The notes beneath the pieces are model-generated. The model ran no database searches. It saw nothing but the letters and a program-made list of their open reading frames with translations, and had not been told where the DNA came from. Shown piece by piece: positions 1,685 to 19,793 of a DNA stretch of 35,236 bases. The stretch lies in the IMG/VR virus record IMGVR_UViG_3300029305_011606; one strand, written 5' to 3'. The DNA comes from an uncultured virus (IMG/VR IMGVR_UViG_3300029305_011606) (taxonomy: Duplodnaviria > Heunggongvirae > Uroviricota > Caudoviricetes). Position 1 is the first letter of the stretch; every line of letters starts with the position of its first letter. The translations under genes were made by a program, and so were the position numbers.

Positions 1685-1847
1685 TAGGATGGTAAATGAT
1701 ACGCATTCGAGGGTTTCGGACCGTTCGAATATGTACGGAGGTGATGGCAGAAATGTAATGATACCAAGTGTTTCCTCAACTTCATATATAGTTTCAGGCG
1801 CTTTCTGTAGAATAAGGGTTACACCCGAATGTACAGGAGGCAAGAAA

Positions 1848-2444
1848 ATGAACACAACAACTTACGGATATGTCCGTGTCTCGACCCGTGAGCAGAATGA
1901 AGATCGCCAACTCATCGCAATGCGGCAGTTCGGAGTTGATGAGGATAGCGTTTTCATTGACAAGCAGTCGGGAAAGGACTTCAATCGCCCACAATACCGA
2001 AAGCTGGTCAGAAAGCTGAAATGCGATGATACACTGGTAATCAAGAGTATTGACCGGCTCGGGCGCAATTATGAGGAGATCATTGAGCAGTGGCGGATTA
2101 TCACCAAAGAAAAAAAGGCAGCCATCGTAGTGTTGGACATGCCTTTGCTGGATACTCGGCAGGGACGGGATCTGACCGGGACACTGATCGCTGATATTGT
2201 TCTTCAGTTGCTCTCGTATGTGGCGCAAACCGAAAGAGAATTCATTCGGCAAAGACAGGCCGAGGGCATTGCCGCCGCAAAGCAGAAGGGCGTTCGGTTT
2301 GGGCCGAAACCGAAGGATCGCCCCGATAAGTACCAATATTGCTACGAGAAGTGGCAGCGAGGAGAAATGTCGGCAAGAGAGGCCAGTCGAATACTCGGAA
2401 TATCACATACTACTTTTCTCCGTTGGACTGAAAGCGGCGCTTGA
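1848..2444 (+). CDS. Small serine recombinase (resolvase/invertase family)
   Basis: Catalytic YGYVRVST motif, DKQSGK..RP, SIDRLGRN, ERE.IRQRQ.EGI and a C-terminal HTH. AGGAGG at 1835-1840 supports ATG 1848. Confidence 0.95.
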   Translation: MNTTTYGYVRVSTREQNEDRQLIAMRQFGVDEDSVFIDKQSGKDFNRPQYRKLVRKLKCDDTLVIKSIDRLGRNYEEIIEQWRIITKEKKAAIVVLDMPLLDTRQGRDLTGTLIADIVLQLLSYVAQTEREFIRQRQAEGIAAAKQKGVRFGPKPKDRPDKYQYCYEKWQRGEMSAREASRILGISHTTFLRWTESGA

Positions 2445-2775: not shown

Positions 2776-5493
2776 ATGAACAATGTAACTGCTAGTGACG
2801 AAATGGTATTGTTTGATAAATACAGAGTCAAGTTGCATTCCTTGGTCAGCGATTCGGTGAGGTATGCTGAAGAACTGCAAGAAGACGCCGACTTTTCAGG
2901 ATATAGTGCGAAAATCATTGATGAATTGCGCTATTCACAGAAGATTCTCGCTGATAACATTATGCCGACATCGTTGTTTTCTGCATTTCAGAAAGGTAAG
3001 TCTACGACAACAGTTGCAATGGCTGATGGGCATGAAATTACGCCCTGTGGAAAAGGTGGCGGCGGCATTCGCCTAAGTGCTGTTCCGTTAACAATCTATC
3101 ATGATCGTCATGCTACTCAGGTGACAGTCAACACTTATTCAAAGGAGAAGTTAGTCCGAAGAATTATGGAGGTGGCTGGAGAGCACTTAGATGCACAGGA
3201 TTTTGAATATGATCTTGATAATGAAGAACATAGGAGATTCTTGAAAGCTGCGATATGCAAAGAGATTGCATTATTTCAGCAGTTGAATCCAAAGGAAGAT
3301 ACCTATGATATCGATAAGATGAACATGCTAAGGAGTGCCATACTGACTATTGCACTGTATGGATCACCAGAACATAAAAACCTATGTGCAGGCGCATATA
3401 AGTCGATTGACGATATTCAGTCTTTTATCAGTTTTTCTACAGAATTGGAGAAAAAGTGGGAAAATCTGAGACGAATGGGCTTTGATGTTGTCTATGCAAA
3501 AGATGAACAGGGCACTTCACTCTTCGTTCCTAAAGAGCATCTTTATGTATTTGTGGAAAGCATTATCGTTCCTGTGCACTCTGAATTTATGGAAGAAACA
3601 GGAACTGCCGTGATTGATGCGCCAGGCACTATGGCTAGCATTGAAGACACGGAGCGTGCACTAAAAGCTGCAAATGAAGCCGCCGTGGTACTCTACATTC
3701 TCGATGGTGAGTCACAGCTTTCTCAGTCCGATACTAACATGTTGAAGATACTTCGAAATGCTGGTATGGCTGAAAAGGTGGTCTTTGTAATCAATTTCCG
3801 GAAAAATCCCTTGATTATTCAACAAGCAGGTGGAATTGGGGAAGCTATCTTAGCGGGTATTCAGCAACAGGGTTATACAATGCCTCATCATAGCTATCTG
3901 CTATATTATAATGCCTTTTTAGCAGTTCGCGCAGCTCAGGGCAAACTGCTTATGGAAGGCAAGCTTGACAAATTGTCTGAAGATGCGATCATGGAAGATG
4001 CCCGGAAACGGCTTCTTAAGTGTGAGACAGTAATGGATGCGTGGAAAAAGACGACATCACGTGTTCTAAGAGCGGTAGATGCAGATGACGCTGCCGATAA
4101 TCTGGCGCAGAATGGTCTGTGTAAAGAAACAGTAGCTGAAATATTAGAAGTAAGCCAGTGGCGAGAGATGATTGATAAATTGCGGGCTCATGTAATGAAT
4201 AACCGAGTAGCAGGCATTTTGCGCGATTTAGGTGCAAGACCAGTCATTGGAGCTCTCAAAGGAATAGAAAGTTCTCTTAGCAGTACCGAGAAGGCTATGA
4301 GTAACAATCTAGAAGAAGCTCGTAAGCGTTATGCCGAAGCTCGGAAGAAGCTCGATCAATTTGCTGAGAAAACGGATAGCTTGTTGGATAGGCATCTTCC
4401 GGAGAGTGTCGATGAGGAAATTGCAAAGGATTATTTTGATCATGTAATTCTAGGGGCCATTGATATTGCAGCTACGGAAGCCGCGCCGGAAGTGTTCAAG
4501 GAATCTGGTGTGGTTGGTCAGGCGAAGAATTTAGGCAACAAGATTGTAACGGGTCTAAAAAGAGTTGGTCGCGTTGCAAAGCATGCGGTGACAGGCCAAT
4601 CACTGTCTGCTGCATGGGAGATCGATGAAGATGCTCCGGAATGGTTACAGGAAAGATGTCAGAGCATCATTAAGAAGCACCTTCAGAAAGCAATGGTGCA
4701 GACAGCATCGAGTTGGGCTGGAAAACTAGAGAAAACCTCTGTGTATCAGCTTAATATTCGTAACAAAGTTTTGGATATTAGTGATGCCATGAAACAACTT
4801 TGGAAGGATCTTGGGCTCGAACAAGATGAGAAGCTGTCAAGCATCAAACCAGTTCCTGATGGATTGACTGGTAAAATGTCGGTAGATATCGTCAATTCTG
4901 AGATTCGAACGATTCTAGTAAATACGACTCTTTCTGCCAATTTAACCGTGACTGCTATGCTCAAGTCAGTTGGTGCAGGTGTGGGAACTGCGGTTGGACT
5001 TACATATCTATACTATTTCGTTTTGCCATTGGACTTTGTAATTCCGGGTTTTGCGGAGTTGCTGTTAATTGTTTCTGCAGCAGTGGCGGCTATTGTATTT
5101 GCTGTCAGCAAAAAGAAAAAGGCAAAGCATATCGCTAAGCTGGCAGAAAATATTTCCAAGGAACTTTATGCGAATTTCCAGAAAAAGAAGGATGATATTG
5201 TCCAAATGATTGCTACTGGGATGGATGAGGATGGAAATCCTCTGAATCAGGAGGATGAACCAGGGATTTCCTCAATTCGTTTGTTCTACATTTCTTTGTT
5301 CAAGTCGATTTTGGAAATGCAACGCAATGATTTGTCCACGAATGAAAAGAATGAACTGGCGCTCCTTAAGATGTCCGATAAGCAGCGGAAAGAAGTTGTT
5401 GAAAAAGCAAAGACATGGCGTGTGAAGAAGATAGAACCTCTTCGCAGGAAGCTTGATAGTACATTGGAAGAAATCACTCAGATTTGGTCATGA
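2776..5493 (+). CDS. Bacterial dynamin-like GTPase, full length
   Basis: G1-like SAFQKGKST, G3 VIDAPG and G4-like VFVINF, followed by a helical/coiled-coil stalk and a hydrophobic hairpin (VGAGVGTAVGLTYLYYFVLP...LLLIVSAAVAAIVFAV) ending in KKKK. AGGAGG RBS. Confidence 0.82.
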   Translation: MNNVTASDEMVLFDKYRVKLHSLVSDSVRYAEELQEDADFSGYSAKIIDELRYSQKILADNIMPTSLFSAFQKGKSTTTVAMADGHEITPCGKGGGGIRLSAVPLTIYHDRHATQVTVNTYSKEKLVRRIMEVAGEHLDAQDFEYDLDNEEHRRFLKAAICKEIALFQQLNPKEDTYDIDKMNMLRSAILTIALYGSPEHKNLCAGAYKSIDDIQSFISFSTELEKKWENLRRMGFDVVYAKDEQGTSLFVPKEHLYVFVESIIVPVHSEFMEETGTAVIDAPGTMASIEDTERALKAANEAAVVLYILDGESQLSQSDTNMLKILRNAGMAEKVVFVINFRKNPLIIQQAGGIGEAILAGIQQQGYTMPHHSYLLYYNAFLAVRAAQGKLLMEGKLDKLSEDAIMEDARKRLLKCETVMDAWKKTTSRVLRAVDADDAADNLAQNGLCKETVAEILEVSQWREMIDKLRAHVMNNRVAGILRDLGARPVIGALKGIESSLSSTEKAMSNNLEEARKRYAEARKKLDQFAEKTDSLLDRHLPESVDEEIAKDYFDHVILGAIDIAATEAAPEVFKESGVVGQAKNLGNKIVTGLKRVGRVAKHAVTGQSLSAAWEIDEDAPEWLQERCQSIIKKHLQKAMVQTASSWAGKLEKTSVYQLNIRNKVLDISDAMKQLWKDLGLEQDEKLSSIKPVPDGLTGKMSVDIVNSEIRTILVNTTLSANLTVTAMLKSVGAGVGTAVGLTYLYYFVLPLDFVIPGFAELLLIVSAAVAAIVFAVSKKKKAKHIAKLAENISKELYANFQKKKDDIVQMIATGMDEDGNPLNQEDEPGISSIRLFYISLFKSILEMQRNDLSTNEKNELALLKMSDKQRKEVVEKAKTWRVKKIEPLRRKLDSTLEEITQIWS

Positions 5494-5516
5494 CAAAGTG
5501 AAAGAAGGCGAATCTC

Positions 5517-6416
5517 TTGCGGAAATGGGCGGATTTTATCAATGAAGGCCACATTGATAAGGAACTGACGAGAGAAAAACCCATTATTGCCATTATGGGA
5601 TGCTACCAAATTGGCAAATCAACGCTTCTTAATTGTTTGTTACACGATTATGTGGCTTTGACAGGCAAGGGACTGGCTACTACATCCCTTACGGCTAGGT
5701 ACAGGTATGGGACAGAGCGATCAATTGCTTATCGTAGCCGTAAGGGACAACTTGTTTCAACAGATATTGCGTTATTGCAGACTCAAGCCGTTCTTAACGA
5801 TATCTCAGAAGAAAGCGCCTTTCATGTGGAGGCTCGTTTCAAACACGAGTTACTACATAGCTTCGATGTCGTAGATACCCCCGGCTTTAATGCAAATGAA
5901 TCGGACACCCATAAAACAATGCAATCGATGTCGGATGTGCATTATGTATTATTCATGATGCCAAATCGCTCTTTTACGCAGATAGAAAAAAGTATCTTGA
6001 CAACTCTTTACCAGAGAAAGATACCTTTTTCGGTCATCATGAATTGCGTCAACGGAAGACGAGAAGAAAGATGGCTTCCACACCATCAATTGAATCAAGC
6101 AATCTGTCAAGAAAACAGTGCATGGCTTCAAGCGAATATCTTGGATAATGTTATTCAAATAGAAGGACGGAATGTCTTTCCATTCAACGCCATGTTTTAT
6201 TGGTCGCAACAGAATGCTTTTGAATCGAGCTTTAAATATATTGATAGACCGGAAACTGTGCATAAGCATATTGCTGGCCTTTTTAGCGAGGAAGGTATTA
6301 ACTATACTTCTGCAAGCGTTATAGAGCAAAGTAATGTTCCGCAGTTGACAGAGCATTTGCAGAAAATGGTTGAAAGATATGACCCAATTACGCACGCATG
6401 GAGAGGGATGAAATAA
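5517..6416 (+). CDS. Dynamin-family GTPase, G-domain only
   Basis: IAIMGCYQIGKSTLLN (G1), ATTS (G2), VVDTPGFN (G3), SVIMN (G4). No stalk or TM region. TTG start. Confidence 0.85.
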   Translation: MRKWADFINEGHIDKELTREKPIIAIMGCYQIGKSTLLNCLLHDYVALTGKGLATTSLTARYRYGTERSIAYRSRKGQLVSTDIALLQTQAVLNDISEESAFHVEARFKHELLHSFDVVDTPGFNANESDTHKTMQSMSDVHYVLFMMPNRSFTQIEKSILTTLYQRKIPFSVIMNCVNGRREERWLPHHQLNQAICQENSAWLQANILDNVIQIEGRNVFPFNAMFYWSQQNAFESSFKYIDRPETVHKHIAGLFSEEGINYTSASVIEQSNVPQLTEHLQKMVERYDPITHAWRGMK

Positions 6417-6868
6417 TGAGTCGCTATTACAGTTTTAATGATTTTATGAACGATGTATTGGATCGGGCAAATGAGGTGTGTCAAGCACAGCATCAAGTTT
6501 CTCTGGAGGATTACTACAAAGTATCAAACCAAACTATGCGAACAATCCGAAAACTCATCAGTTCAGGATGGTACGTGTTTGCTGCTGTTGTTGCTCTGTT
6601 TGCTGCAGGAGGATTGGGCTTAGGTGTAGCAATTGTAGCATTTCTTTCAACCCCACCAGGAATGATTGTCGCCGCTGTTCTTGGTGTAACCGCTGTTGCG
6701 TCTATCAGGAAAATGTATCAGGAAAGAGTATTGCCAAATGCGGTTCGTGATGTTGGCAATCAATACAAGGGCAAATGGGAGATGATAGAAGGCAATCGTT
6801 CTGCAATTGATAGTCTTGTCTATGAAGCAGCAGATCAACTTCTAAAAAAGGCTGCTGCCAACTACTGA
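6416..6868 (+). CDS. Small membrane protein with a hydrophobic hairpin
   Basis: TAATG stop/start overlap with the GTPase. Hydrophobic Gly/Ala-rich segments WYVFAAVVALFAAGGLGLGVAIVAFL and MIVAAVLGVTAVASI. Confidence 0.8.
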   Translation: MSRYYSFNDFMNDVLDRANEVCQAQHQVSLEDYYKVSNQTMRTIRKLISSGWYVFAAVVALFAAGGLGLGVAIVAFLSTPPGMIVAAVLGVTAVASIRKMYQERVLPNAVRDVGNQYKGKWEMIEGNRSAIDSLVYEAADQLLKKAAANY

Positions 6869-6881
6869 TTGAGGTGCTGTT

Positions 6882-7883
6882 ATGAAGATTGTATTGTATT
6901 CGGCACCATATTATACGAAACACTGTCAATGTACATATATCGGTATCGAAGGCATTGATTATACGGTAGATGACAAGCGTTTCCGTTCCTTTGTTGCAGA
7001 CAGACCAATGACACAGTGGTTGTTACCTTATACGGTACGCTTGTTTCACTGGCGTGGGATATTGGCTGAGCTTCTGGATGCCTTGAATGACACTTGTCTG
7101 GATTTTGTCTTTTACGGTTTGAAATCAGATTTTGAGGTGTTTTGCCGCGAAATAAGAATTCAAGAGCAATCTCTGGCTTGTGAATATAGAACTGCGCTTC
7201 AAATTAGTGTAATGTATGGATGTAACCCTTGGGATGAGGCGCTTGTTGAGAAAATTGTTCCTATGCTTACGCAAACAATTGATGCCTCTGCAAGTTCCAA
7301 TATAGCACAATTAATTGAAGCGAAGCGTGACCTGTTAAAGCAGCCAACAAGCATGTGTGGGAAATGGATAGCACAATCTGATCCCTCAGATGAAGACAAG
7401 AAGTTACTTATGGAAGTCGGAATGACAGAGGGCAAACATGAAGTTCTGCTTGATGCATTCATATTAGACGGTGAGCGCGATGCAGACGAACAAGCACTAT
7501 TTTGCATCAAGTATGCTTCCTGTCCTTGGGAAGATTTACAGTGCAATAAACGTATATATATGCTTGTTGAAGACCAACAGAATGGAAAGAACGCAGTTGA
7601 ACGGTTGCTGTCTGTAATGCGCGAGAAAGGCCATTACATACAGAATATTGTTGCCGTTACTTCGTACAAGGAAATCGTTAGCGATATAAAGTCTGTAAAT
7701 TATTTGATGGACTGTTATATTCCGCGAATGCTTGCTGCGGCTATTGATGAATTGATGGTAGCTTGGAATGAGATTCCATCAGATATCGTCGATCAGGAAC
7801 TATATGAAGTACGCAACCGTCTAGCGACAATTCAACGACCGCGTGATTGGATCAACTCCTTAACTAGTAGGCTAATCGACTGA
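6882..7883 (+). CDS. Hypothetical protein of the dynamin operon
   Basis: 333-aa ORF with a GAGGTG RBS and tight spacing to its neighbours. No catalytic motif recognised. Confidence 0.75.
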   Translation: MKIVLYSAPYYTKHCQCTYIGIEGIDYTVDDKRFRSFVADRPMTQWLLPYTVRLFHWRGILAELLDALNDTCLDFVFYGLKSDFEVFCREIRIQEQSLACEYRTALQISVMYGCNPWDEALVEKIVPMLTQTIDASASSNIAQLIEAKRDLLKQPTSMCGKWIAQSDPSDEDKKLLMEVGMTEGKHEVLLDAFILDGERDADEQALFCIKYASCPWEDLQCNKRIYMLVEDQQNGKNAVERLLSVMREKGHYIQNIVAVTSYKEIVSDIKSVNYLMDCYIPRMLAAAIDELMVAWNEIPSDIVDQELYEVRNRLATIQRPRDWINSLTSRLID

Positions 7884-7899
7884 TAGAAGGAGAGTTAAT

Positions 7900-8256
7900 A
7901 TGGAATTTGGGAAACTTGGGATTGAGCGGGTGAATGGACAAGAAGTTAACGAGATTAAGGAAGCGATAGAAGAAATCTCCAACGTTTCCGACTATGAAGC
8001 GGTACTTGATGAAATAATGGAAAGTCTGGAAGGCCGAGATTTCCAAATTCCATCAGAAGAAGAAGTCTCAGAAATGGCAGAATTTCTCGGCATTTCTGGA
8101 CAAGATCTTCAAAAGCTGGTTGATTTTGTCGCAGATCCACGATCCGCATTAGAAGATGTAATCATGCAAGATGTAAAACCCAATGACAATTACCTTGCGT
8201 ACTGCACATTTGCTGGTTGTCAGGGAACCTGTCGTGGATGCGCAGGACGACACTAG
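7900..8256 (+). CDS. Putative RiPP precursor: long acidic leader and Cys-rich C-terminal core
   Basis: AAGGAG RBS. About 100 acidic, Cys-free residues are followed by CTFAGCQGTCRGCAGRH. The gene lies 11 nt upstream of a radical SAM/SPASM gene. Confidence 0.72.
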   Translation: MEFGKLGIERVNGQEVNEIKEAIEEISNVSDYEAVLDEIMESLEGRDFQIPSEEEVSEMAEFLGISGQDLQKLVDFVADPRSALEDVIMQDVKPNDNYLAYCTFAGCQGTCRGCAGRH

Positions 8257-8267
8257 GAGATGGTTGT

Positions 8268-9389
8268 ATGATATGGCCTACCAAAGGACACAAATCTCGT
8301 AAGGAGCTTTGTTTACTGATCAGTCATAAGTGCAACTTAAATTGTACCTATTGCTACGTTGATAAATCGGCAAATAAGACAGAATTGATGCCGTTGAAAG
8401 TGGCTCAGCAAGCTATAACAGAACTGTTTGCAGATCCAGATTATGAAGAAGTCGAAATTTCTTTCCTGGGTGGCGAACCACTGCTATGCTTTGAGAGAAT
8501 TGCAGAAATCGCTCAATGGGTGATGGATCAATCTTGGAATAAGCCGTATATCCTATTTGCAACAGTAAACGGAACATTACTGAACAATGAGATGAAAGCG
8601 TGGTTTCGAGAAAGGAAAGATAGGTTTTATCTTTGTGTGAGTTATGATGGAAAGTATCACGCACAGGATATAAACAGGAGCGAATCTAACCATCAAATCG
8701 ATATAGATTTCTTTGTAGAGACATGGCCAGATCAGCCGATAAAAATGACTTTGTCTGAAGAAGCTGCCCCCTATCTTGCTAGAAACGTAATCGATTTGCA
8801 TGAAAGGAATGTTGAAATCGATGCGAGTATTGCGCTAGGAACTCCGTGCTGGAAAAAGGATTCCGTCCGTGTTTTCCGCCAACAACTTGACTTGCTAGCG
8901 GATTATTATCTCACAAAGCCAGATGTGATACCAATTGCATTTCTGAGGCATGATTTGCGTGGAATATGGGCAAAAGAGGACAAGAATACCCGATACTGTG
9001 GTGCAGGCAAACAGTTTTCAGCTGTGTATTTGGATGGAAGTAAGCATCCGTGTCATTTGTTGTCGCCACTGGTACTTTCGTCTGAGAAAATGAAAAAAGC
9101 CGAAGCACTGGATATTTGGAATACAGTTATTTCAGATATGCCTGTATGCAATGATTGTATGATTCGAAGATTTTGCCCCATGTGCATTGGAATGAATTTT
9201 AAGTGCATGGGTCATCCTGCGATGCGTGATAAAAACAGTTGTATGCTGGTTAAGCAGCAACTTCTTGCTGCCTGTCGTTTTCAGACACACTTGATGATGC
9301 GTAATCCTAACAAGGATAAAAGTGATCTGGAAATGGCAAAAGCAGTGGTCGTCTTATCACAAGCATTGAAGAAAATGGATATTGACTAA
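8268..9389 (+). CDS. Radical SAM/SPASM peptide maturase 1
   Basis: CNLNCTYC, FLGGEP, TVNG, VSYDG and SPASM cysteines YCGAG...PC...CNDC..RRFCPMC...C. AGGAG RBS before ATG 8268. Confidence 0.92.
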   Translation: MIWPTKGHKSRKELCLLISHKCNLNCTYCYVDKSANKTELMPLKVAQQAITELFADPDYEEVEISFLGGEPLLCFERIAEIAQWVMDQSWNKPYILFATVNGTLLNNEMKAWFRERKDRFYLCVSYDGKYHAQDINRSESNHQIDIDFFVETWPDQPIKMTLSEEAAPYLARNVIDLHERNVEIDASIALGTPCWKKDSVRVFRQQLDLLADYYLTKPDVIPIAFLRHDLRGIWAKEDKNTRYCGAGKQFSAVYLDGSKHPCHLLSPLVLSSEKMKKAEALDIWNTVISDMPVCNDCMIRRFCPMCIGMNFKCMGHPAMRDKNSCMLVKQQLLAACRFQTHLMMRNPNKDKSDLEMAKAVVVLSQALKKMDID

Positions 9390-9402
9390 GGAGGAGATCA
9401 TT

Positions 9403-12400
9403 GTGGGTACACAGCAAAATGATCTGATGCAAATCAATCAGGCTCTAATGGAGATGCCTTCGGCAGATGGGCTATCAAAAGCTCTTGATATGGCTGACAT
9501 TACTGTGCGCTGTCGATATCTAAGTGTTCTTGAAAATGCACCTGTGTTAATTCCAGAAAATAGAATGCAAACGGAACTTGGCAGAAATGTCAGGGTATTT
9601 CATTTGGGATGCATCACATATGCAGAGAATGAAAATATAGCCAGGAAATGCTCGGCGTTGTTTCATGCTCTAGCCGATTATAATGCATCAGCAGTGTATT
9701 GGCTTCGTAGCGATGGAGACAAAATTGATGTGTATCTTGGTACGGCAAGTGATAACCCGGCAGACTTGAGCATGGTTTTCAAGACTTTGAAGGGAGCATT
9801 CGAAGGAAATTTTCCCGGAAGTGAAGTCACGAACGAGACGGTATCTTCTAATGTTGACTTGCTGAACAGCATGCTGACATATGATGAGCAGTATCCACCA
9901 ACAATAGCGGCAGTATCTTGCTTGACAGAAGCTAATGCAGATAGTGTGCAACATGAGTTGCGTGGCTTGGAAACGCTTGTGGACAGTATGCGTGGTGAAC
10001 GGTATGACATTTTAGTCCTAGCTTCCTCGGTTTCAAGTGCAGAACTGTCAGAAATTCGTGACAACTACGAAACTCTATATACACAGCTTACACCATTTAG
10101 CAAGAATACGGTGTCGATTTCACAGAGTAATGCCGAGAGCTATACTCACGGCATTTCAACGTCAATTTCAAAGTCGGTTACTAAAACAAGGGGAACATCT
10201 CGTAGTTTCAGCCAAGGACAGAGTGTGTCCAGAAGTATGGAAGACCAGTCCTCTAGAGGCAAGGCTCTTGAGATCGGCGGTACCCTTTTGAGCATTGCTG
10301 GGATGGGAATGTTGGGATCTGCTGGTTTACTCGGGGAGGGAGTTGCTGCATTAGGTGGTTTAAGTACGGGCGTATTTATGGGTGGTGGTGTATCGAGGCT
10401 TCTTCAGCTTGCATTTGATGAAAAAAAAGCAACGGAAACCAAGGGAGACACCAAGCAGTTTACTACTGGTGATCATGAGGATGAAGGGCATACGGATGGC
10501 ACTGTAGATGGAACAAGTGATTCGTCAAGCAATTCGGTAACGAATGGACGTACTTGCCAGCTAAGCTATGAGAACAGAGCTATAAGAAGTATGCTTGATG
10601 AAATTGATACTCAAATCCAACGTCTAGAATACTGTGAAAGTGCAGGAGCATTTCGATGCGCGGCTTATGTGGTAGCCCCTGATGAGCCAACTGCCCGTAG
10701 AGTGTCTGGACTTTATCGCTCCATCATGACAGAGTCTTCATCAAGTAGTAGTAAAGTACACATCAATATCTGGAATGATCACCGTGATACGGCTGTAATC
10801 TGCGATTGCTTAAAGCAGATGAAACATCCATACTTTCAATTTTCCAATACCAACGGATTCAAGGAATTTGCGACCGCAGCGACCGTGATTCCAACGCTGG
10901 ATATGCCGCGTTTCTTCGCACTTCCTCAAAAATCATTACCAGGACTCATGGTAACCAAACATGCAGAGTTTTCTAGGAATATTCCGGAAAGCGGCAAACA
11001 AGCAGATCAGTTAATTAGGATTGGAAAATTGGTGCACATGGGAAAGGAGGAAAAGAGCACCGTTCTTTTCGACTTGGAGCAGTTGCGAAAACACGTTTTC
11101 ATCGCAGGAGCACCTGGATCGGGAAAATCAAATTTTTGCTATCATTTATTGAACTGCTTGATGAAAAAAGGCGTGCACTTCCTTGTAATAGAACCTGCAA
11201 AGGGAGAATACGCATCGGTTCTCGGTGGATGTAAGGGAGTTCATGTATATGGAACAAATGCGAGTCGGGCACCTCTTCTTCGCATTAATCCTTTCGCGTT
11301 CCCGGAAGGAACAGATTTATCAGAACATTTAGATAAGCTCATGCAGGTCTTTAATACATGTTGGCCGATGTATGCAGCAATGCCAGCAATTCTTAAGGAT
11401 GCACTAGAAAAATGTTATGCGTCCTGTGGATGGGATCTCGATGAAGGTACATGCAACCGGGAGAAACCTTTATTTCCGACTTTTAGAGATCTTATGCGCA
11501 TACTACCAGACGTAATAGAGGATGCAGGGTACTCAAGTGAAGTTCAATCAAACTACAAAGGTGCATTGCTTTCACGTGTTAAGTCTATGTCAAACGGCAT
11601 TCTTGGTCGTATTTTTTGCGGAAACGAAATACCGGATGAAATGCTGTTCGACAAAAACGTTTGCGTGGATATCAGCCGCCTAGGATCCGAAGAAACTAAG
11701 TCTTTGATCATGGGTATGTTGATTATCAGAATGACGGAGTATCGTGTTCAGCAGCATCACGGTATCAACGAAGATCTTCAACATGTCACTTTGCTTGAGG
11801 AAGCACATCATTTGCTAAGGAAGCATACGGCTTCAGCGTCAATGGAATCAGCAGATGCGGCAGGATTATCTACAGTTTTGCTTACGAATGCAATTGCTGA
11901 AATGCGTACATATGGTGAGGGATTCCTAATTGCAGATCAAACACCATCGTGCATGGAGGAGGCAGTAATAAGCAACACGAGTGCAAAAGTAGTTTTTAGA
12001 TTGCCGAACGTGATCGATAGAATGCCAGTAGGAAATGCGATGGGATTGAATGAAGAGCAGATGAGAGAACTATCCCTACTGGATACGGGAATCGCTGTTG
12101 TACATCAAGGCTCTTGGTCGGAGCCAGTTCTTTGCAAGATTGATTTTTATTCTCCTGATAGGTATCAACCCTATATTCATGATCAGAAGAATAATACAGA
12201 TCAATCGGAACTAAGAGCGGCTCGAAGTTTGGCTCTGAGTATCTTCTTAGCAAATAGAACTAAGCGGCGCTACGAGAATCATAAATTGATGAAAACTTCC
12301 TTGGAGACGTTGAGTCTTGGGCGGCGTGCTTCTGACAGGATACTATATAGTTGTCTTGATGAGTATGTGAAACGAGGGACTATTCCGGAATGGAAGATGT

Positions 12401-12660
12401 TATCAACTCAATGTGGATGTGCAGATGCTATTCTAGATGGATTTATCCTATTTGAGGAGATGGATATTTCTCTGAAAGAGTGGAATCAGCGTGCGGAAAA
12501 GCATATATCAAGATCTTTCGACTTGGATTCCGAAGATATGGCGGCGGCAATTAGTCTTTTGATAATGGGAAGAAGCTCTGGTTCCGAATCAATGACCTTG
12601 TTCTACACCCAATGGTTTATGTATAGTAAGAAACAACGTGCTAGCAAGAGAAAGGAGTAA
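9403..12660 (+). CDS. Large HerA/FtsK/VirB4-superfamily P-loop ATPase
   Basis: HVFIAGAPGSGKS (Walker A), VIEPAKGEY, VTLLEEAH (Walker B), EMRTYG, IADQTP and ISNT. AGGAGG precedes GTG 9403. Confidence 0.88.
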   Translation: MGTQQNDLMQINQALMEMPSADGLSKALDMADITVRCRYLSVLENAPVLIPENRMQTELGRNVRVFHLGCITYAENENIARKCSALFHALADYNASAVYWLRSDGDKIDVYLGTASDNPADLSMVFKTLKGAFEGNFPGSEVTNETVSSNVDLLNSMLTYDEQYPPTIAAVSCLTEANADSVQHELRGLETLVDSMRGERYDILVLASSVSSAELSEIRDNYETLYTQLTPFSKNTVSISQSNAESYTHGISTSISKSVTKTRGTSRSFSQGQSVSRSMEDQSSRGKALEIGGTLLSIAGMGMLGSAGLLGEGVAALGGLSTGVFMGGGVSRLLQLAFDEKKATETKGDTKQFTTGDHEDEGHTDGTVDGTSDSSSNSVTNGRTCQLSYENRAIRSMLDEIDTQIQRLEYCESAGAFRCAAYVVAPDEPTARRVSGLYRSIMTESSSSSSKVHINIWNDHRDTAVICDCLKQMKHPYFQFSNTNGFKEFATAATVIPTLDMPRFFALPQKSLPGLMVTKHAEFSRNIPESGKQADQLIRIGKLVHMGKEEKSTVLFDLEQLRKHVFIAGAPGSGKSNFCYHLLNCLMKKGVHFLVIEPAKGEYASVLGGCKGVHVYGTNASRAPLLRINPFAFPEGTDLSEHLDKLMQVFNTCWPMYAAMPAILKDALEKCYASCGWDLDEGTCNREKPLFPTFRDLMRILPDVIEDAGYSSEVQSNYKGALLSRVKSMSNGILGRIFCGNEIPDEMLFDKNVCVDISRLGSEETKSLIMGMLIIRMTEYRVQQHHGINEDLQHVTLLEEAHHLLRKHTASASMESADAAGLSTVLLTNAIAEMRTYGEGFLIADQTPSCMEEAVISNTSAKVVFRLPNVIDRMPVGNAMGLNEEQMRELSLLDTGIAVVHQGSWSEPVLCKIDFYSPDRYQPYIHDQKNNTDQSELRAARSLALSIFLANRTKRRYENHKLMKTSLETLSLGRRASDRILYSCLDEYVKRGTIPEWKMLSTQCGCADAILDGFILFEEMDISLKEWNQRAEKHISRSFDLDSEDMAAAISLLIMGRSSGSESMTLFYTQWFMYSKKQRASKRKE

Positions 12661-12665
12661 GGACA

Positions 12666-12992
12666 ATGAAACGAATCATTTTGTTTGACTCGACTCGCAA
12701 GGAACTTGGAGATGTAAGGATTGACTCCATTGTAGGCCGCATTGAAGCAAACCTACGGAATGATTCTTCAGCTGTGGAAAGTGCATTGAATGAAATGCTG
12801 ACTTCTATTGCGGAAGATGGTGTGCTGTTCGTTTCAAAAGCACAACGACAGAATGATATGATTCTTGAAACACGCGAGAAAATCACACTGAAGCATCCAC
12901 AAGCTTTGAATGCATTGGCTGATGCAATCAATCACTATACAAACTGGCCGCAGCGGATATTTGCTGTAATTCAAAACAGGGAGGAGGAATAA
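12666..12992 (+). CDS. Hypothetical protein (108 aa)
   Basis: AAGGAG/AAGGA RBS. Lies 5 nt after the ATPase stop and 2 nt before the next gene. Confidence 0.75.
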   Translation: MKRIILFDSTRKELGDVRIDSIVGRIEANLRNDSSAVESALNEMLTSIAEDGVLFVSKAQRQNDMILETREKITLKHPQALNALADAINHYTNWPQRIFAVIQNREEE

Positions 12993-12994
12993 TC

Positions 12995-13744
12995 ATGAAT
13001 CCTTTTGAGAATTTCGAACGTAATTCCTTTTCCCCTGAGCGCAACATCCTCAATATTGAAGGGTTTGATGAGTACTCTGATTTGTCTAAAGCGGAAGTAG
13101 AAGGAATAATTAAGGATTTGGTTCCTGAAGATCACTTGGAGAAATGCGAGAATATTACATGCTCTGTTGATCGCGCTTTGTGGGATTCTTTTCCAGAAGC
13201 ATTGGGTCTATATAACATTGAAACAAGAGATATTACATTGGCCAGTAGCAAAGTGTTTGACATAACCGGTGAAAATGAAATTGAAGTTTTGTTCCATGAA
13301 ATTGGACATAACGCTCACGCTGTTTTAATGGATCATAACCCAGAAGCGGCTGCCGAATGGGCAGAGTTGCATGAAAGTACGCTCGAAACGAATGCACTGG
13401 ACGGCTTTGGATTTGTTTCAGAGTATGCAAAAACGGATGTATATGAGGATTTTGCGGAAAGCTATTCGCAGTACATTGCAAATCCAGCTTTGCTCGAATT
13501 TATGTCTCCTGAGAAGTATGCTTTTATGAAAACGCAGGTATATGATGGAAGGGAGTATGGCCGAGTAACAGTAGGCAGTGGTCAGTATGCAATGTACGAA
13601 AAGAGCGTGGCTGATGCCTTGCAGGCTGCTGTAAGAGACGCTGGTGTTGATAGTAGGTATACAACTATAGAGGTGGGCGGCAAATTCGAACCGATCAAGG
13701 ATACCTATCGATGCTTCAGTATTGTTGCAAGCAGCGCTAGTTAA
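12995..13744 (+). CDS. Zincin-like (HExxH...E) metallopeptidase
   Basis: VLFHEIGHN plus FVSEYAKTDVYEDFAESY...PEKYAFM, a pattern typical of lethal-factor-like gluzincins. GGAGGAGG RBS. No signal peptide. Confidence 0.85.
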   Translation: MNPFENFERNSFSPERNILNIEGFDEYSDLSKAEVEGIIKDLVPEDHLEKCENITCSVDRALWDSFPEALGLYNIETRDITLASSKVFDITGENEIEVLFHEIGHNAHAVLMDHNPEAAAEWAELHESTLETNALDGFGFVSEYAKTDVYEDFAESYSQYIANPALLEFMSPEKYAFMKTQVYDGREYGRVTVGSGQYAMYEKSVADALQAAVRDAGVDSRYTTIEVGGKFEPIKDTYRCFSIVASSAS

Positions 13745-13846
13745 GCCGTTTTGTCTAGAAGTGCATATTGACCTTACGTGTGAGTATGCACTTCTAAGAC
13801 ATGAATTTGAATATGAAGAAGAAATACGGAAAACGGAGGGGAGAAA

Positions 13847-15232
13847 ATGGGAGCAAGAGAAATTCACTTTCATAAGGCTGTTCACGCCTATAAACGTGGT
13901 TCTCATGTGTATTTTCTCAATTCTGCGAATGGCGCATGGGTTGCCATGCCATCGAGTTATGCAAAATGCTTGATGGAAGAACAGGATATTGTGAATCATA
14001 GTAAGGAATATATGTACGCCTATGATACCCTCGCTAATGCGTCAATTATACAAGATGTTCAACACGCGGAAAAGCAGAGTATATGCGAGCATAAGCCGTT
14101 GATTGTTCAGTTTCAAACAACAGGCGAGTGTAATTTACAGTGTATCTATTGTTTTAATGAGCCATCATTACGTACACATGTAATGAGTGAAACGATAATG
14201 AAGCAGTCGGTAGATTATGTCTATTCCCACCCTCAGGCTTGTTATGGAGTTCACTTTAGCATATATGGCGGAGAGCCCCTAATGCAACGAGATTTGCTTT
14301 ATAGTACGATCCGTTACATTAGAAAAAAGCAACCTGATAAGAATACAACTATTAGTGTTATAACCAATGGAACATTGTTAACGAGTGAGGACGTTTCCTT
14401 TTTCTTATCACAGAATGCAATAGTTAATGTCTCTTTTGATGGTTTGCCATGTTTTCAGGATCAGAACAGAAAGGATAAGAATGCGCGAAATACAAGTGAA
14501 CAAGTATTGAGTGCAATAGGAAAGCTTAAGCATCTTCCGAATTTGAGCATTCTGACAACAGTGACTCATGAAATGTCGTCCAAATTGTTAGACATTGTGC
14601 TCTTCGCAGAAGAAAATGGATTTCCGGGCGTAGAATTTATGCCACTTCGTATGTTAGGCACAGCGGAAAATAACAATTCGCTAACAGTTGATGTCAAAGC
14701 ATATATCAAAGCTATGATGGAAATTGTTGAAGCAATTGAGGAAAAACAGATTAAACAAACCGCTGTACGTGCGCTTTTAAGAATGCTCTATCCCTTGGAA
14801 ACTATGCAGACGGTACACGGCGAGATAGGATGTGCTCGATGTGGTGCGGGGCGTGATACTATTCTTATTACTTGCAGTGGTGAAATTAAGGGATGCGACA
14901 TGCTTCCAGAACATCATTCTCCGGTGATAGGAAATGTATGGGATGGAATAACGGCTTTGGAAAAGCTTGATTGTATTGTTCAACCTGGATATACTAAACT
15001 TAAAGCATGTTCTCAATGCATATGGAATAGATACTGCCGTAGCGGATGCACAGGAGCAAGTGCCAGTGACCAAGATGATTATTTGTCGAAGCATGAAATG
15101 ACTTGCATGATAAATAAAGCACTATATCCTTATTTGTTGGAAAAGCTTGCAACTGATGGAGGTGTGTTGCACGAATATTTCTTGACGCATACTACATCAA
15201 TCTATGACCACGATGGAGTAGCGAAGGAGTAA
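13847..15232 (+). CDS. Radical SAM/SPASM maturase 2 with an N-terminal extension (possible RRE)
   Basis: CNLQCIYC, YGGEP, ITNG, VSFDG and SPASM cysteines RCGAG...GC...CSQC.WNRYCRSGC...C. About 85 residues precede the rSAM core. Confidence 0.92.
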   Translation: MGAREIHFHKAVHAYKRGSHVYFLNSANGAWVAMPSSYAKCLMEEQDIVNHSKEYMYAYDTLANASIIQDVQHAEKQSICEHKPLIVQFQTTGECNLQCIYCFNEPSLRTHVMSETIMKQSVDYVYSHPQACYGVHFSIYGGEPLMQRDLLYSTIRYIRKKQPDKNTTISVITNGTLLTSEDVSFFLSQNAIVNVSFDGLPCFQDQNRKDKNARNTSEQVLSAIGKLKHLPNLSILTTVTHEMSSKLLDIVLFAEENGFPGVEFMPLRMLGTAENNNSLTVDVKAYIKAMMEIVEAIEEKQIKQTAVRALLRMLYPLETMQTVHGEIGCARCGAGRDTILITCSGEIKGCDMLPEHHSPVIGNVWDGITALEKLDCIVQPGYTKLKACSQCIWNRYCRSGCTGASASDQDDYLSKHEMTCMINKALYPYLLEKLATDGGVLHEYFLTHTTSIYDHDGVAKE

Positions 15233-15291
15233 TTATCAATGTTTTTGTTTTTAGTCGTCAAATGGTTTTCGACTAATACGATCTCTAGTAG

Positions 15292-15318
15292 AAAAGTGCG
15301 GGATTATCTCGCACTTTT
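15292..15318. terminator. Bidirectional-type intrinsic terminator closing the dynamin/rSAM operon
   Basis: AAAAGTGCGGGA-tta-TCTCGCACTTTT (one G-U pair), followed by GTT. Confidence 0.75.
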
Positions 15319-15391
15319 GTTATAGACGCTATGTGATATTAATCAAAAGGTGTCGTATCCCAGTAAAAATCAAGAAGGAGACAAAGCGTAT

Positions 15392-16387: not shown

Positions 16388-16390
16388 AAA

Positions 16391-16435: not shown

Positions 16436-16481
16436 ATGTGTGGCGGATATATTACACGAATTGCATTGGAGGAAATGCGTC

Positions 16482-17126: not shown

Positions 17127-17132
17127 TCATAT

Positions 17133-19785: not shown

Positions 19786-19793
19786 AGGTGACA

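What the first reader, a model, noticed from the sequence alone, without database searches (positions are those of the whole stretch)
2776..15232. Candidate new system: dynamins, radical SAM RiPP machinery, HerA/FtsK-like ATPase and zincin in one operon
Seen: ten co-oriented genes with short gaps (an overlap up to 23 nt, plus one ~100-nt gap) and one downstream terminator. The order is dynamin, GTPase, 2-TM protein, unknown, Cys-tailed peptide, rSAM/SPASM, large ATPase, small unknown, HExxH protease, second rSAM/SPASM. There is no ABC or peptidase-containing exporter. Known: rSAM/SPASM enzymes form thioether crosslinks in Cys-rich peptides (sacti-/ranthipeptides); bacterial dynamins remodel membranes, and LeoABC/Eleos-type and DynA dynamins are linked to anti-phage activity; HerA/FtsK ATPases are ring translocases. 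Inference: either a crosslinked peptide and protease are exported by a non-canonical ATPase/dynamin route, or this is a defence system that uses a modified peptide. I do not recognise this combination as described.
Basis: partly seen in the sequence, partly recalled or inferred. Interest (0 to 1): 0.92.

Follow-up and report, generated by a model that had tools for sequence, protein, structure and literature searches.

The report
Dynamin–ATPase toxin system carrying modified peptide
This ten-gene operon is a rare version of a very widespread but seemingly undescribed bacterial machine (dynamin-like GTPases plus a giant HerA/FtsK-type ATPase) that normally sits beside a toxin and its antidote, and here carries a cysteine-rich peptide, two radical-SAM enzymes and a metalloprotease instead.

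Summary
In detail: ten co-oriented, tightly packed genes (2776-15232) end at a strong hairpin on a low-GC island beside serine recombinases. The ATPase family is huge (7421 hits). In 93 other loci its neighbours are conserved. Dynamin-like GTPases lie upstream in 64 of 78 loci with enough flank. A small tail-anchored membrane protein often follows. A short polymorphic toxin lies directly downstream (58 of 77), then an immunity gene (42 of 70). None of the 93 has a radical-SAM gene, the peptide or the zincin nearby, so this combination is a rare cargo swap. It is still not accidental. A relative with a 75%-identical ATPase appears to keep the peptide and its rSAM. The peptide's last 17 residues are invariant in 5 of 5 homologues that are otherwise 31-54% identical. 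Two cyanobacterial plasmids place a related ATPase, a small protein and a homologous zincin with a Cys-rich tail next to an MbnB-type enzyme. Best reading: an effector-deployment, probably export, machine with a peptide-processing module as cargo. Export versus intracellular defence is unresolved. No description was found in nine literature searches, PADLOC or NCBIfam.

The parts
53..1207 (+). Large serine recombinase (Recombinase + Zn-ribbon domains). It gives the mobile-element context at the island's left edge.
   Evidence: Pfam Recombinase 1.9e-23 and Zn_ribbon_recom 3.3e-10. GC falls from 0.53 to about 0.42 between 1 and 17 kb.
1689..2444 (+). Resolvase-type serine recombinase with an HTH domain.
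   Evidence: Pfam Resolvase 1.4e-28.
2776..5493 (+). g1, a 905-aa divergent dynamin-like protein with a hydrophobic paddle/TM segment near residue 760.
   Evidence: PADLOC LeoBC 4.1e-13 and LeoA 3.5e-7. Pfam Dynamin_N and MMR_HSR1 score below cut-off. One TM segment is predicted at 759-777. It matches my HMM of mid-size dynamins from related loci at 1.2e-6.
5517..6416 (+). g2, a 299-aa dynamin-family GTPase domain protein.
   Evidence: Pfam MMR_HSR1 1.7e-10 and Dynamin_N 5e-9, both above cut-off. It hits the GTPase region of the roughly 760-aa dynamins of related loci. The P-loop and DxxG motif were read from the translation.
6398..6868 (+). g3, a 156-aa membrane protein with a hydrophobic hairpin.
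   Evidence: Hydropathy segments at residues 53-97. There is a weak PADLOC LeoBC hit to its membrane region, 0.001. It shows no sequence match to the tail-anchored small protein of related loci.
6882..7883 (+). g4, a 333-aa protein. Its first ~135 residues are the N-terminal domain of the ~760-aa dynamin of canonical loci. I saw no P-loop when reading it.
   Evidence: Homologues lie directly upstream of the ATPase in L001, L006, L009 and L019. The L009 homologue aligns with residues 1-139 of the large dynamins. The nearest Atlas models are dynamin-family clusters, but at TM of only about 0.3.
7900..8256 (+). g5, a 118-aa precursor-like protein with an acidic variable N-terminal part and an invariant C-terminal peptide, YCTFAGCQGTCRGCAGR(H).
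   Evidence: It has 4 homologues at 31-54% identity, and the last 17 positions are identical in 5 of 5 sequences.
8217..9389 (+). g6, a radical SAM/SPASM enzyme (373-390 aa; likely start at 8268). It is paired with g5.
   Evidence: Pfam Radical_SAM and Fer4_12. NCBIfam PapB scores 2.2e-32 (112.6 bits, cut-off 340). CX3CX2C lies at residue 39 and CX2CX5CX3C at 311. Homologues P0127 and P0128 share contig lengths with the g5 homologues.
9382..12660 (+). g7, a 1092-aa ATPase. It has a conserved N-terminal domain, a Ser/Thr- and Gly-rich weakly hydrophobic linker (~240-400), a HerA/FtsK/TraG-type P-loop domain (545-925) and a C-terminal domain.
   Evidence: Pfam DUF87 3e-10 and FtsK_SpoIIIE 1e-5. 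PADLOC HerA scores 2e-17 over part of the protein. The best PDB matches are HerA chains. There are 7421 full-length relatives. The alignment shows 150+ invariant columns, including GxGKSN and EEAHHLL.
12666..12992 (+). g8, a 108-aa protein of unknown family in the first slot after the ATPase.
   Evidence: It hits no family. It gives a weak ungapped match of 15.5 bits to the 101-aa protein at the same position on two cyanobacterial plasmids. The best of 200 shuffles reaches 5.9 bits, and BLASTP sees nothing. The Atlas structural neighbour is a cluster of 101-aa proteins at TM 0.65.
12995..13744 (+). g9, a 249-aa gluzincin of the M34/MtfA/Peptidase_Mx type with a disordered C-terminal tail that carries a conserved YRCF motif.
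   Evidence: 527 homologues, which hit ATLF, Peptidase_Mx1 and M90. HEIGHN and EDFAE are conserved, and the RCF/VCF tail motif occurs in 12 of 24 aligned rows. The model has pLDDT 84.9, with the tail 227-249 below 50. Foldseek top hits are 4l7a at 8e-5, lethal-factor-type and Pro-Pro endopeptidase catalytic domains, at TM 0.4-0.5.
13847..15232 (+). g10, a 461-aa radical SAM/SPASM enzyme with an ~85-residue N-terminal extension.
   Evidence: Pfam Radical_SAM 1.5e-13. NCBIfam PapB 4e-45 (154.5 bits, cut-off 340), CcpM 1.9e-35 and anSME 6.5e-34, all below cut-off. Cys motifs lie at residues 95 and 388.
15292..15322 (+). Terminator-like hairpin that closes the operon.
   Evidence: A 12-bp stem followed by a U tract. 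The 103-nt stretch around it has z -4.08, and 0 of 200 shuffles fold as well.

Best explanation
The operon is a cargo-swapped member of a widespread module that deploys effectors at the membrane and travels on mobile elements. The module's constant part is a ~1,050-1,100-aa HerA/FtsK/TraG-type ATPase. Usually one to three dynamin-like GTPases and a small membrane-anchored protein precede it. Its variable part, directly downstream, is normally a ~190-aa protein followed by a cognate immunity gene. That protein has a short acidic N-terminal region and a polymorphic toxin domain, such as a WHH, LHH or NS_2 nuclease, or a TNT domain.

I infer that the ATPase ring recognises and translocates the effector, as the T7SS EssC and type IV coupling proteins do, while the dynamin-like proteins remodel or vesiculate the membrane.

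In this window the toxin/immunity cassette is replaced by a peptide-processing module:
- g5 is a precursor whose invariant Cys-rich C-terminal 17-mer is crosslinked by the SPASM enzyme g6, and perhaps also by g10.
- g9 is an M34/MtfA-like zincin with its own Cys-bearing tail, next to g10. It is either the protease that releases the peptide or a second effector.
- g8 is its small partner.

What is shown: gene content, synteny, family sizes and motif conservation. What is inferred: translocation, the membrane role, the crosslink chemistry and who cleaves whom.
For: The family is large and its synteny is conserved. The ATPase has 7421 hits. Of 600 pattern matches in genomes, 528 were confirmed and the best 80 were kept. 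Another 13 loci come from viral contigs.
- Dynamin-like ORFs lie upstream in 64 of 78 loci that have at least 4 kb of flank.
- The small protein is present in 43 of those 78 loci, and 45 of 48 cluster members have a C-terminal TM segment.
- The +1 gene carries a toxin domain in 58 of 77 loci.
- The +2 gene is SUKH, DUF6985 or YezG-like in 42 of 70 loci.
- RefSeq annotation on E. coli, Lactococcus and Bacillus plasmids agrees.

The window-specific genes are integrated into the module, not appended to it. g5-g6 lie between g4 and g7 with 16-nt and 11-nt gaps and an 8-nt overlap, and g8-g9 occupy the effector slot.

The g5 core is invariant in 5 of 5 homologues. The homologues of g5 (48%), g6 (73%) and g7 (75%) each sit on a single 15,223-bp contig.

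Two cyanobacterial plasmids carry a GTPase or AAA protein, then a g7 homologue (about 1e-60), an unknown gene, a 101-aa protein, a g9 homologue (about 1e-39) that ends in FCCDCxxYCSYDPNGCSP, and then an MbnB-type enzyme with its partner.

The whole block is intact in strain variants from 4 runs.
Against: None of the 93 other ATPase loci has an rSAM, g5 or g9 homologue nearby, so coupling rests on one close clade and one distant parallel.

The module occurs in monoderms, diderms and one archaeal MAG without any outer-membrane component. That argues against a dedicated trans-envelope secretion machine.

WYL regulators lie upstream in several loci, and Sel1/TPR-S repeat proteins replace the dynamins in 4 loci. 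Both features are usual in defence systems.

g7 itself has no segment that reaches my hydropathy threshold. g8's homology to the cyanobacterial protein is weak. g5's N-terminus shows no significant likeness to the effector N-termini of the nearest loci (E 0.086). g9-like zincin domains also occur away from any such ATPase, in 5 of 5 viral loci. No immunity-type gene is recognisable in the window.
Confidence: 0.5

Rival explanations
1. This is an intracellular conflict system (anti-phage or anti-plasmid, abortive infection). The dynamin-like proteins, or Sel1/TPR proteins in some relatives, sense an insult at the membrane. The ATPase then frees the toxin from its immunity protein inside the producer cell. 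In this window the processed, crosslinked peptide is a toxin or alarm signal, as proposed for the zincin + small-peptide + rSAM/SPASM 'peptide-processing systems' attached to NTP-dependent conflict systems.
For: The two-gene LeoA/LeoBC (Eleos) dynamin system protects against jumbo phages (passages of 10.1101/2022.05.11.491447), and g1/g2 hit its PADLOC models. HerA-type ATPases are cores of known defence systems (PADLOC and PDB hits). WYL regulators lie upstream. A repeat 'sensor' protein replaces the dynamins in 4 loci. The module occurs across all envelope types and on plasmids and prophage-like contigs beside integrases. The cyanobacterial parallel lies beside Hsp70 and DO-GTPase genes. The peptide-processing precedent is described in PMC7159879 (passages read).
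Against: The downstream pairs are the classical toxin/immunity families of intercellular antagonism. Some loci carry extra effector/immunity pairs (L019), which makes most sense if toxins reach other cells. Only 9 of 49 sampled loci had any PADLOC hit at E<=1e-10 among 119 flanking proteins, and about 6 of these were specific systems; there was no control set. No PADLOC or NCBIfam model covers the ATPase at full length.
Confidence: 0.3
2. Two unrelated modules share one operon on a mobile island: an ordinary sacti-/ranthipeptide-like RiPP cluster (g5, g6, g9, g10) and a dynamin/HerA module that has lost its toxin. There is no functional coupling between them.
For: 0 of 93 other ATPase loci carry rSAM, g5 or g9. 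g6 has about 300 homologues, many from taxa in which the module was not seen. g9-like domains occur without the ATPase. The island is low in GC and flanked by recombinases.
Against: g5-g6 are inserted inside the core, between g4 and g7, with translational-coupling distances. The homologues of g5, g6 and g7 appear together on the 15,223-bp contig. An independent lineage joins a related ATPase, a g9 homologue with a Cys tail and a different Cys-modifying enzyme class. No transporter is present for a stand-alone RiPP.
Confidence: 0.12
3. The ATPase is a DNA translocase of a conjugation- or Ced-like transfer apparatus, and the neighbouring genes serve DNA transfer.
For: There are weak hits to CedD (1.3e-20, 73.6 bits against a cut-off of 600), VirB4-like models and the TraG P-loop. 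More distant DUF87 relatives on actinobacterial plasmids lie beside relaxase and T4SS genes.
Against: Those actinobacterial proteins match only the ATPase domain. The canonical loci contain no relaxase, pilus or other T4SS genes among the conserved neighbours. The conserved downstream partners are toxins and immunity proteins.
Confidence: 0.04

Closest known systems
Eleos / LeoABC dynamin system (LeoA + LeoBC; ETEC tia island; anti-phage in Bacillus)
   Same: It has paired dynamin-like GTPases in one operon, sometimes split into pieces, with a membrane-binding hairpin. g1 and g2 hit the PADLOC LeoBC and LeoA models. LeoA was first linked to toxin release through vesicles (abstract and passages of PMC4159319).
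   Different: Eleos is a two-gene system with no HerA/FtsK ATPase, toxin/immunity pair, rSAM or peptide (passages). In H10407 the genes flanking leoABC are reported as not conserved. The hits here are partial: LeoA profile positions 103-171 of 559, and LeoBC 263-589 of 601.
Type VIIb secretion (EssC FtsK/SpoIIIE ATPase exporting LXG polymorphic toxins with immunity proteins)
   Same: An FtsK/HerA-class ATPase is encoded beside small polymorphic toxins. Many are nucleases, paired with SUKH or YezG-type immunity proteins, and they lack Sec signals. This is the functional analogy I lean on (passages of PMC3113570 and PMC3482391).
   Different: There are no WXG100, LXG, EsaA, EssA or EssB genes. 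g7 has a single ATPase domain with a different ~530-aa N-terminal half. Dynamin-like GTPases accompany it. The module also occurs in diderms and one archaeal MAG.
HerA-based defence systems (Sir2-HerA, DUF4297-HerA; NurA-HerA)
   Same: The P-loop domain is HerA-like (PADLOC HerA 2e-17; PDB HerA chains 7e-14 to 1e-5). An effector gene lies next to the ATPase.
   Different: The matches cover only about residues 660-925. The protein is twice as long. Its partners are dynamins and toxin/immunity pairs, not Sir2, DUF4297 or NurA. NCBIfam HerA_antiphage scores 56.9 bits against a cut-off of 800.
Peptide-processing systems of NTP-dependent conflict systems (zincin + small fast-evolving protein with a conserved C-terminal peptide + rSAM/SPASM; FxSxx-COOH type)
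   Same: The same three parts and the same conservation pattern are present: a variable body and a conserved C-terminal peptide. Both are attached to an NTPase-centred core with variable effectors (passages of PMC7159879; g5 alignment).
   Different: The peptide motif differs (a Cys-rich 17-mer, not FxSxx). g6 scores 32.7 bits on the FxsB model against a cut-off of 370. The zincin family differs (M34/MtfA-like). The core is a dynamin/HerA module rather than MoxR-vWA.
Sacti-/ranthipeptide RiPP clusters (PapB, SCIFF/CteB, CcpM)
   Same: A SPASM-type radical SAM enzyme lies next to a short Cys-rich precursor. The best NCBIfam hits are PapB, SCIFF, CcpM and CXXX-repeat maturases.
   Different: All scores are far below the family cut-offs. 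The core peptide is invariant while the 'leader' diverges. There is no ABC or C39 exporter. Two maturases are present, and the cluster is embedded in a dynamin/ATPase operon.
MNIO (MbnB/TglH/ChrH, DUF692) RiPP systems
   Same: In the cyanobacterial parallel, an MbnB-family enzyme and a small partner follow a g9 homologue with a five-Cys tail. MNIOs modify Cys in precursors (abstract of PMC12452194, listing).
   Different: The window has no MNIO. In the passages I searched, the published MNIO landscape mentions HExxH neighbours only for a different group (267-386 aa, with MNIO-nitroreductase fusions) and has no occurrence of DUF87, GTPase or 'cyanobacteri'.

Membership tests
Eleos (LeoA + LeoBC) defence system | Two adjacent genes that match the LeoA and LeoBC models over most of their length | tested here: not met
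   g1 matches LeoBC at 4.1e-13 over profile positions 263-589 of 601. g2 matches LeoA at 3.2e-9 over profile positions 103-171 of 559 only.
Eleos (LeoA + LeoBC) defence system | A self-contained two-gene operon | tested here: not met
   The dynamin-like genes are the first of ten co-oriented genes, and in 64 of 78 related loci they precede the large ATPase.
Bacterial dynamin-like proteins | A dynamin-type GTPase domain with a P-loop and DxxG | tested here: met
   g2 scores above cut-off on Dynamin_N (36.8 bits, cut-off 27). g1 scores below cut-off (16.7 bits), and its P-loop reads as a variant in the translation.
Radical SAM/SPASM peptide maturases | A CX3CX2C radical SAM cluster motif plus a C-terminal Cys-rich SPASM motif | tested here: met
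   g6 has motifs at residues 39 and 311. g10 has motifs at residues 95 and 388. Both hit Pfam Radical_SAM and Fer4_12.
PapB-family ranthipeptide maturase (NF047865) | A score at or above the curated cut-off of 340 bits | tested here: not met
   g6 scores 112.6 bits and g10 scores 154.5 bits.
Sacti-/ranthipeptide biosynthetic cluster | A Cys-rich precursor gene adjacent to the maturase | tested here: met
   g5 ends 11 nt before the likely g6 start. The pairing recurs for P0122/P0127 and P0123/P0128, judged by shared contig length.
Sacti-/ranthipeptide biosynthetic cluster | Thioether crosslinks in the product | not testable with these tools
   This needs mass spectrometry of g5 co-expressed with g6 and g10.
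HerA (anti-phage or repair) helicase | A full-length match to a HerA equivalog model | tested here: not met
   HerA_antiphage scores 56.9 bits against a cut-off of 800, and HerA_Thermprot scores 42 against 800. The matches cover only the C-terminal part of the ATPase domain.
Type VIIb secretion system | EssC with FHA and multiple FtsK domains, together with WXG100/LXG substrates | tested here: not met
   There are no WXG100, LXG or FHA hits in the window's genes or in 24 neighbours of four related loci.
Polymorphic toxin system | [quoted passage not shown] | tested here: not met
   The feature is met in relatives: 58 of 77 +1 genes and 42 of 70 +2 genes. It is not met in this window, where the slot holds g8 and the zincin g9 and no known immunity family.
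Peptide-processing system (zincin + conserved C-terminal peptide + rSAM/SPASM) | A small, fast-diverging protein with a conserved C-terminal peptide | tested here: met
   Five g5-family sequences are 31-54% identical overall, and their last 17 residues are identical.
Peptide-processing system (zincin + conserved C-terminal peptide + rSAM/SPASM) | The zincin cleaves the precursor | not testable with these tools
   g9 has an intact HExxH...E and an M34/MtfA-like model. Its substrate is unknown.
FxsB family (TIGR04269) | A score at or above the cut-off of 370 bits | tested here: not met
   g6 scores 32.7 bits.

The most novel reading that the evidence does not exclude
The dynamin + tail-anchored protein + giant HerA/FtsK-type ATPase module is a previously unrecognised class of effector-delivery machine that does not depend on envelope type. 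The ATPase would load toxins, and dynamin-like GTPases would bud or fuse membrane to release them. It is spread by plasmids, ICEs and prophages across Bacillota, Spirochaetota, Pseudomonadota, Fusobacteriota, Synergistota and at least one archaeal MAG. The window would show that its cargo slot can also take a ribosomal peptide with an invariant, enzyme-crosslinked Cys-rich core. This would link RiPP maturation by rSAM here, and by MNIO in cyanobacteria, to a non-ABC export route.
Probability: 0.33. Interest if true: 0.95.

Novelty: new variant of a known kind. Interest (0 to 1): 0.8.

Why it matters
Thousands of genomes and plasmids carry a large ATPase annotated only as 'ATP-binding protein' or 'DUF87'. 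They include an ETEC-type E. coli plasmid and dairy Lactococcus plasmids. Beside this ATPase lie dynamin-family genes and a nuclease/immunity pair.

If the module exports toxins, it would be a new route of bacterial antagonism that works in both Gram-positive and Gram-negative cells. It would also give bacterial dynamins a concrete job, which is a long-standing open question. If it is a defence system, it would be a new membrane-linked one with swappable effectors.

The window adds a testable twist: a peptide whose 17 C-terminal residues are frozen while the rest drifts, made by radical-SAM enzymes and wired into this machine. It offers a handle on both the machine's cargo rules and a possibly new RiPP.

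Tried and rejected
- No whole genome is held for the window, so I could make no genome-wide census.
- The metagenome scan with g7 returned only two near-identical pieces of the same element (L081, L082).
- A degenerate pattern for the g5 tail found one IMG/VR contig, again the same element (L086). The same pattern could not be run on genomes because no G handle was available.
- Earlier-findings look-ups returned nothing.
- No RNA holder was listed for the stretch, so I can say nothing about transcripts.
- g5's N-terminus compared with the effector N-terminus of L009 gave BLASTP E 0.086, which is not significant.
- HMMs of the canonical small membrane protein, of two further conserved upstream clusters and of the toxins did not match g3, g5, g8 or g9.
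- g9 against PDB by sequence gave nothing better than E 0.38.
- The Atlas gave no usable feature hits for g8 or g4.
- The nearest loci's +1 proteins hit Peptidase_C39_2 only at 0.005-0.016, below cut-off, so that is a lead only.
- The actinobacterial DUF87 hits turned out to be conjugation ATPases, not this module.
- Nine literature searches and passages of six papers yielded no description of a dynamin + HerA/FtsK + toxin/immunity operon. Subscription journals are not in the library, and Iyer et al. 2004 on FtsK-HerA ATPases was not held.

Full report
**What is in the window**

Ten + strand ORFs fill 2776-15232. Their spacings are 23, -19, 13, 16, 11, -8, 5, 2 and 102 nt. Most have GGAG-type ribosome sites.

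A 12-bp hairpin with a U tract lies at about 15292-15322. The 103-nt stretch that holds it has z -4.08, and 0 of 200 shuffles fold as well. My simple terminator scan had missed it.

The block lies in a stretch of about 0.42 GC from 2 to 17 kb, between flanks of about 0.51. Two serine recombinase genes lie directly upstream.

- g1 is a weak dynamin-like protein, with PADLOC LeoBC at 4e-13 and one predicted TM segment.
- g2 is a Dynamin_N GTPase.
- g3 has a hydrophobic hairpin.
- g5 has a Cys tail.
- g6 and g10 carry CX3CX2C plus SPASM-type motifs.
- g7 has a DUF87/FtsK-type ATPase domain.
- g9 has an HExxH motif.

No ABC transporter family was hit.

**The ATPase defines a large, conserved module**

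g7 has 7421 relatives with E<=0.001 among 7996 scored candidates. Most are 1,030-1,130 aa and align over 95% or more of their length.

Of these, 528 were confirmed and the best 80 were kept. The hosts include:
- Paenibacillus, Bacillus and many Clostridia
- Brachyspira and Treponema
- Campylobacter and Succinivibrio
- Fusobacterium and Leptotrichia
- Synergistaceae
- a Lysobacteraceae strain
- a Methanospirillum MAG

Thirteen more loci come from IMG/VR.

Gene order around the ATPase is strikingly regular.
- Dynamin-like ORFs lie upstream on the same strand in 64 of 78 loci with at least 4 kb of flank. Of these, 45 have two, 11 have one, 7 have three and 1 has four. Pfam Dynamin_N confirmed them in four loci.
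- A ~184-aa protein lies just before the ATPase in 43 of those 78 loci. Of the 48 members of its cluster, 45 have a predicted C-terminal TM segment.
- The gene directly after the ATPase is short and has a C-terminal polymorphic-toxin domain in 58 of 77 loci. The count is 31 Colicin-DNase/WHH, 12 Endonuclea_NS_2, 10 LHH, 2 weak HNH, 1 weak NERD, 1 TNT and 1 SprT-like. Eighteen have no hit and one has only Big_2.
- The next gene is a known immunity family in 42 of 70 loci: 29 SUKH/SMI1_KNR4, 7 DUF6985 and 6 YezG-like.

RefSeq annotation shows the same order on three plasmids: E. coli pTW10590_133, Lactococcus cremoris pB26B and a Bacillus plasmid. The order is dynamin, dynamin, one or two hypothetical genes, ATP-binding protein, HNH nuclease, and then an SMI1/KNR4 protein, or a hypothetical protein on pB26B. 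The Lactococcus and Bacillus plasmids also have a WYL regulator upstream.

Of the 14 loci without detectable dynamins, 4 have a WYL regulator plus a 730-800-aa Sel1/TPR-S repeat protein in that place. One has a TPR protein. Several start right after integrases.

**How the window relates to the module**

At phmmer E<=1e-4, the 80 genome loci share only two things with the window besides g7. A g4 homologue lies directly upstream of the ATPase in L001, L006, L009 and L019, and g2 gives one weak hit. No locus has an rSAM, g5, g8 or g9 homologue. The 13 viral ATPase loci also lack all of them at E<=1e-3. The ten-gene combination is therefore rare.

The loci with a g4 homologue hold the closest ATPases, at 41-43% identity in L001, L009 and L019. 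The g4 N-terminal ~135 residues correspond to the N-terminal domain of the ~760-aa dynamin of canonical loci. g2 corresponds to its GTPase domain. In this clade the second dynamin seems to be broken up and rearranged; that is my inference.

**Evidence that the extra genes belong**

g5 has four homologues, P0122-P0125. They are 31-54% identical overall, yet the last 17 residues, YCTFAGCQGTCRGCAGR, are identical in all five sequences.

The g5 homologue P0122 (48%), the g6 homologue P0127 (73%) and the g7 homologue P0002 (75%) are each recorded on one contig of 15,223 bp from the same source. I infer that this is a single contig, but I did not see it. P0123 and P0128 likewise share 47,703 bp.

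g9 has 527 homologues, of the ATLF/Peptidase_Mx1/M90 kind. HEIGHN and EDFAE are conserved. A C-terminal [YFI][RV]CF motif occurs in 12 of 24 aligned rows, and one homologue ends in a CSGx-repeat Cys tail.

The g9 model is confident (pLDDT 84.9, pTM 0.80) except for the tail at 227-249. It resembles Peptidase_Mx (4l7a, 8e-5), lethal-factor-type catalytic domains, Pro-Pro endopeptidases and MtfA-like hydrolases, at TM 0.4-0.5.

The most telling result comes from two cyanobacterial plasmids, Anabaena pANACY.04 and Planktothrix p1. In order, they carry:
- a GTPase or an AAA protein
- a g7 homologue (7e-60 and 9e-63), which matches both the N-terminal domain and the ATPase domain
- an unknown 248-272-aa gene
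- a 101-aa protein
- a g9 homologue (7e-39 and 3e-39) ending in FCCDC..YCSYDPNGCSP
- an MbnB/TglH/ChrH-family enzyme with a small partner

So a different class of Cys-modifying enzyme sits beside the same ATPase-zincin block. The two plasmids are close to each other and count as one lineage.

g8 aligns with the 101-aa protein only weakly. The match is 15.5 bits, ungapped, over 68 residues. The best of 200 shuffles reaches 5.9 bits, and BLASTP sees nothing.

**Spread of the element**

Near-identical copies occur in a metagenome (L081, L082) and in an IMG/VR contig (L086). Twenty runs from 16 studies hold at least half of the sampled words. They are mostly animal gut or faecal metagenomes plus two coded isolate labels.

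Contigs from four of these runs cover the block. For example, one 8,409-bp contig spans 2626-10870, and another spans 12548-15918. They carry scattered substitutions and one diverged 91-nt patch in g1. This is one element family, not independent evidence of conservation.

**Mechanism**

My best reading has confidence 0.5. The module deploys effectors at the membrane. The ATPase acts as the recognising translocase, by analogy with EssC and type IV coupling proteins. The dynamin-like proteins remodel the membrane. The window's variant carries a peptide-processing module as cargo.

The toxin/immunity families, and an extra effector/immunity pair in L019, favour delivery to other cells.

Several observations go against a dedicated secretion machine and favour an intracellular defence reading (0.3):
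- The module occurs in every envelope type without outer-membrane parts.
- WYL regulators and Sel1/TPR-S substitutes are present.
- Known relatives have defence roles.
- The cyanobacterial parallel sits among Hsp70 and DO-GTPase conflict genes.

Flanks of 49 loci held PADLOC hits in only 9. This is modest, and I had no control set.

Kaur et al. (PMC7159879; passages read) describe 'peptide-processing systems'. These combine a zincin, a small fast-evolving protein with a conserved C-terminal peptide and, in one type, an rSAM/SPASM enzyme, all attached to NTPase conflict systems. They propose that the peptide is a toxin or a signal. This is the nearest published logic for g5, g6, g9 and g10.

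**Novelty**

PADLOC-DB 2.0 and NCBIfam 20.0 have no full-length model for the ATPase. The best scores are 57-74 bits against cut-offs of 600-800. Nine full-text searches and passages of six papers gave no description of the dynamin + HerA/FtsK + toxin/immunity operon. The library lacks most subscription journals, and supplements were not consulted.

I file the window as a new variant of known kinds: polymorphic-toxin or conflict systems, and rSAM peptide maturation. I keep open the bolder reading that the core is a new class of delivery machine.

Noticed in passing
window 15350-29684: Just after the operon comes a dense run of ADP-ribose, NAD and RNA-repair genes: Macro, NADAR+Macro, NMNAT-like+NADAR, NADAR, two ADP-ribosylglycohydrolases, HD proteins, a metallophosphatase, an RNA ligase and an HD+AAA_33 kinase. 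It looks like a detoxification or counter-conflict island.
   Followed up: no
window 4544-4636 (in g1): A 91-nt patch of the dynamin-like gene g1 is replaced by diverged sequence of the same length in contigs of two runs. In L082, g1 is 89% identical while g2-g6 are 98-100% identical. This is local diversification of the dynamin.
   Followed up: partly
L012, L023, L096, L103 (upstream of the ATPase): In these loci a WYL regulator and a 730-800-aa Sel1/TPR-S repeat protein take the place of the dynamin pair. The ATPase and the toxin slot are kept, with an immunity-family hit only in L023's neighbours not tested; L012's +2 gene is an HTH protein.
   Followed up: partly
L083 (E. coli plasmid pTW10590_133, locus 4796-13195): The canonical module sits on a conjugative IncI-type plasmid beside etpB. 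Its order is dynamin, dynamin, hypothetical, ATP-binding, HNH/ENDO VII nuclease, SMI1/KNR4. It is distinct from the chromosomal leoABC locus discussed in PMC4159319.
   Followed up: no
P0270 (g9 homologue); L087 11911-12627; L088 12001-12720: Some g9-family zincins end in long Cys-rich tails: CSGx repeats in P0270, and FCCDC..YCSYDPNGCSP on the cyanobacterial plasmids. The enzyme itself may therefore carry a RiPP-like core peptide.
   Followed up: partly
L019 13268-15300: Two tandem effector/immunity-like pairs follow the ATPase. The +1 and +3 genes are paralogues, and so are the +2 and +4 genes.
   Followed up: no
window 10100-10580 (g7 residues ~240-400): The ATPase has a Ser/Thr-rich low-complexity stretch around a Gly/Ala-rich, weakly hydrophobic segment. 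The equivalent segment passes my TM threshold in 36 of 80 relatives but not in g7. NCBIfam's 'serine-rich protein' model NF033849 aligns over residues 243-889 at 61 bits, against a cut-off of 650.
   Followed up: no
L087 1006-8036: Upstream of the cyanobacterial ATPase lie an Hsp70-family gene, a protein with weak DO-GTPase hits, a GUN4-domain gene and a Dynamin_N/MMR_HSR1 GTPase.
   Followed up: no
L091-L095: g9-like zincin domains also occur in five IMG/VR contigs, inside proteins of 169-711 aa, with no related ATPase or rSAM within the fetched flanks.
   Followed up: partly
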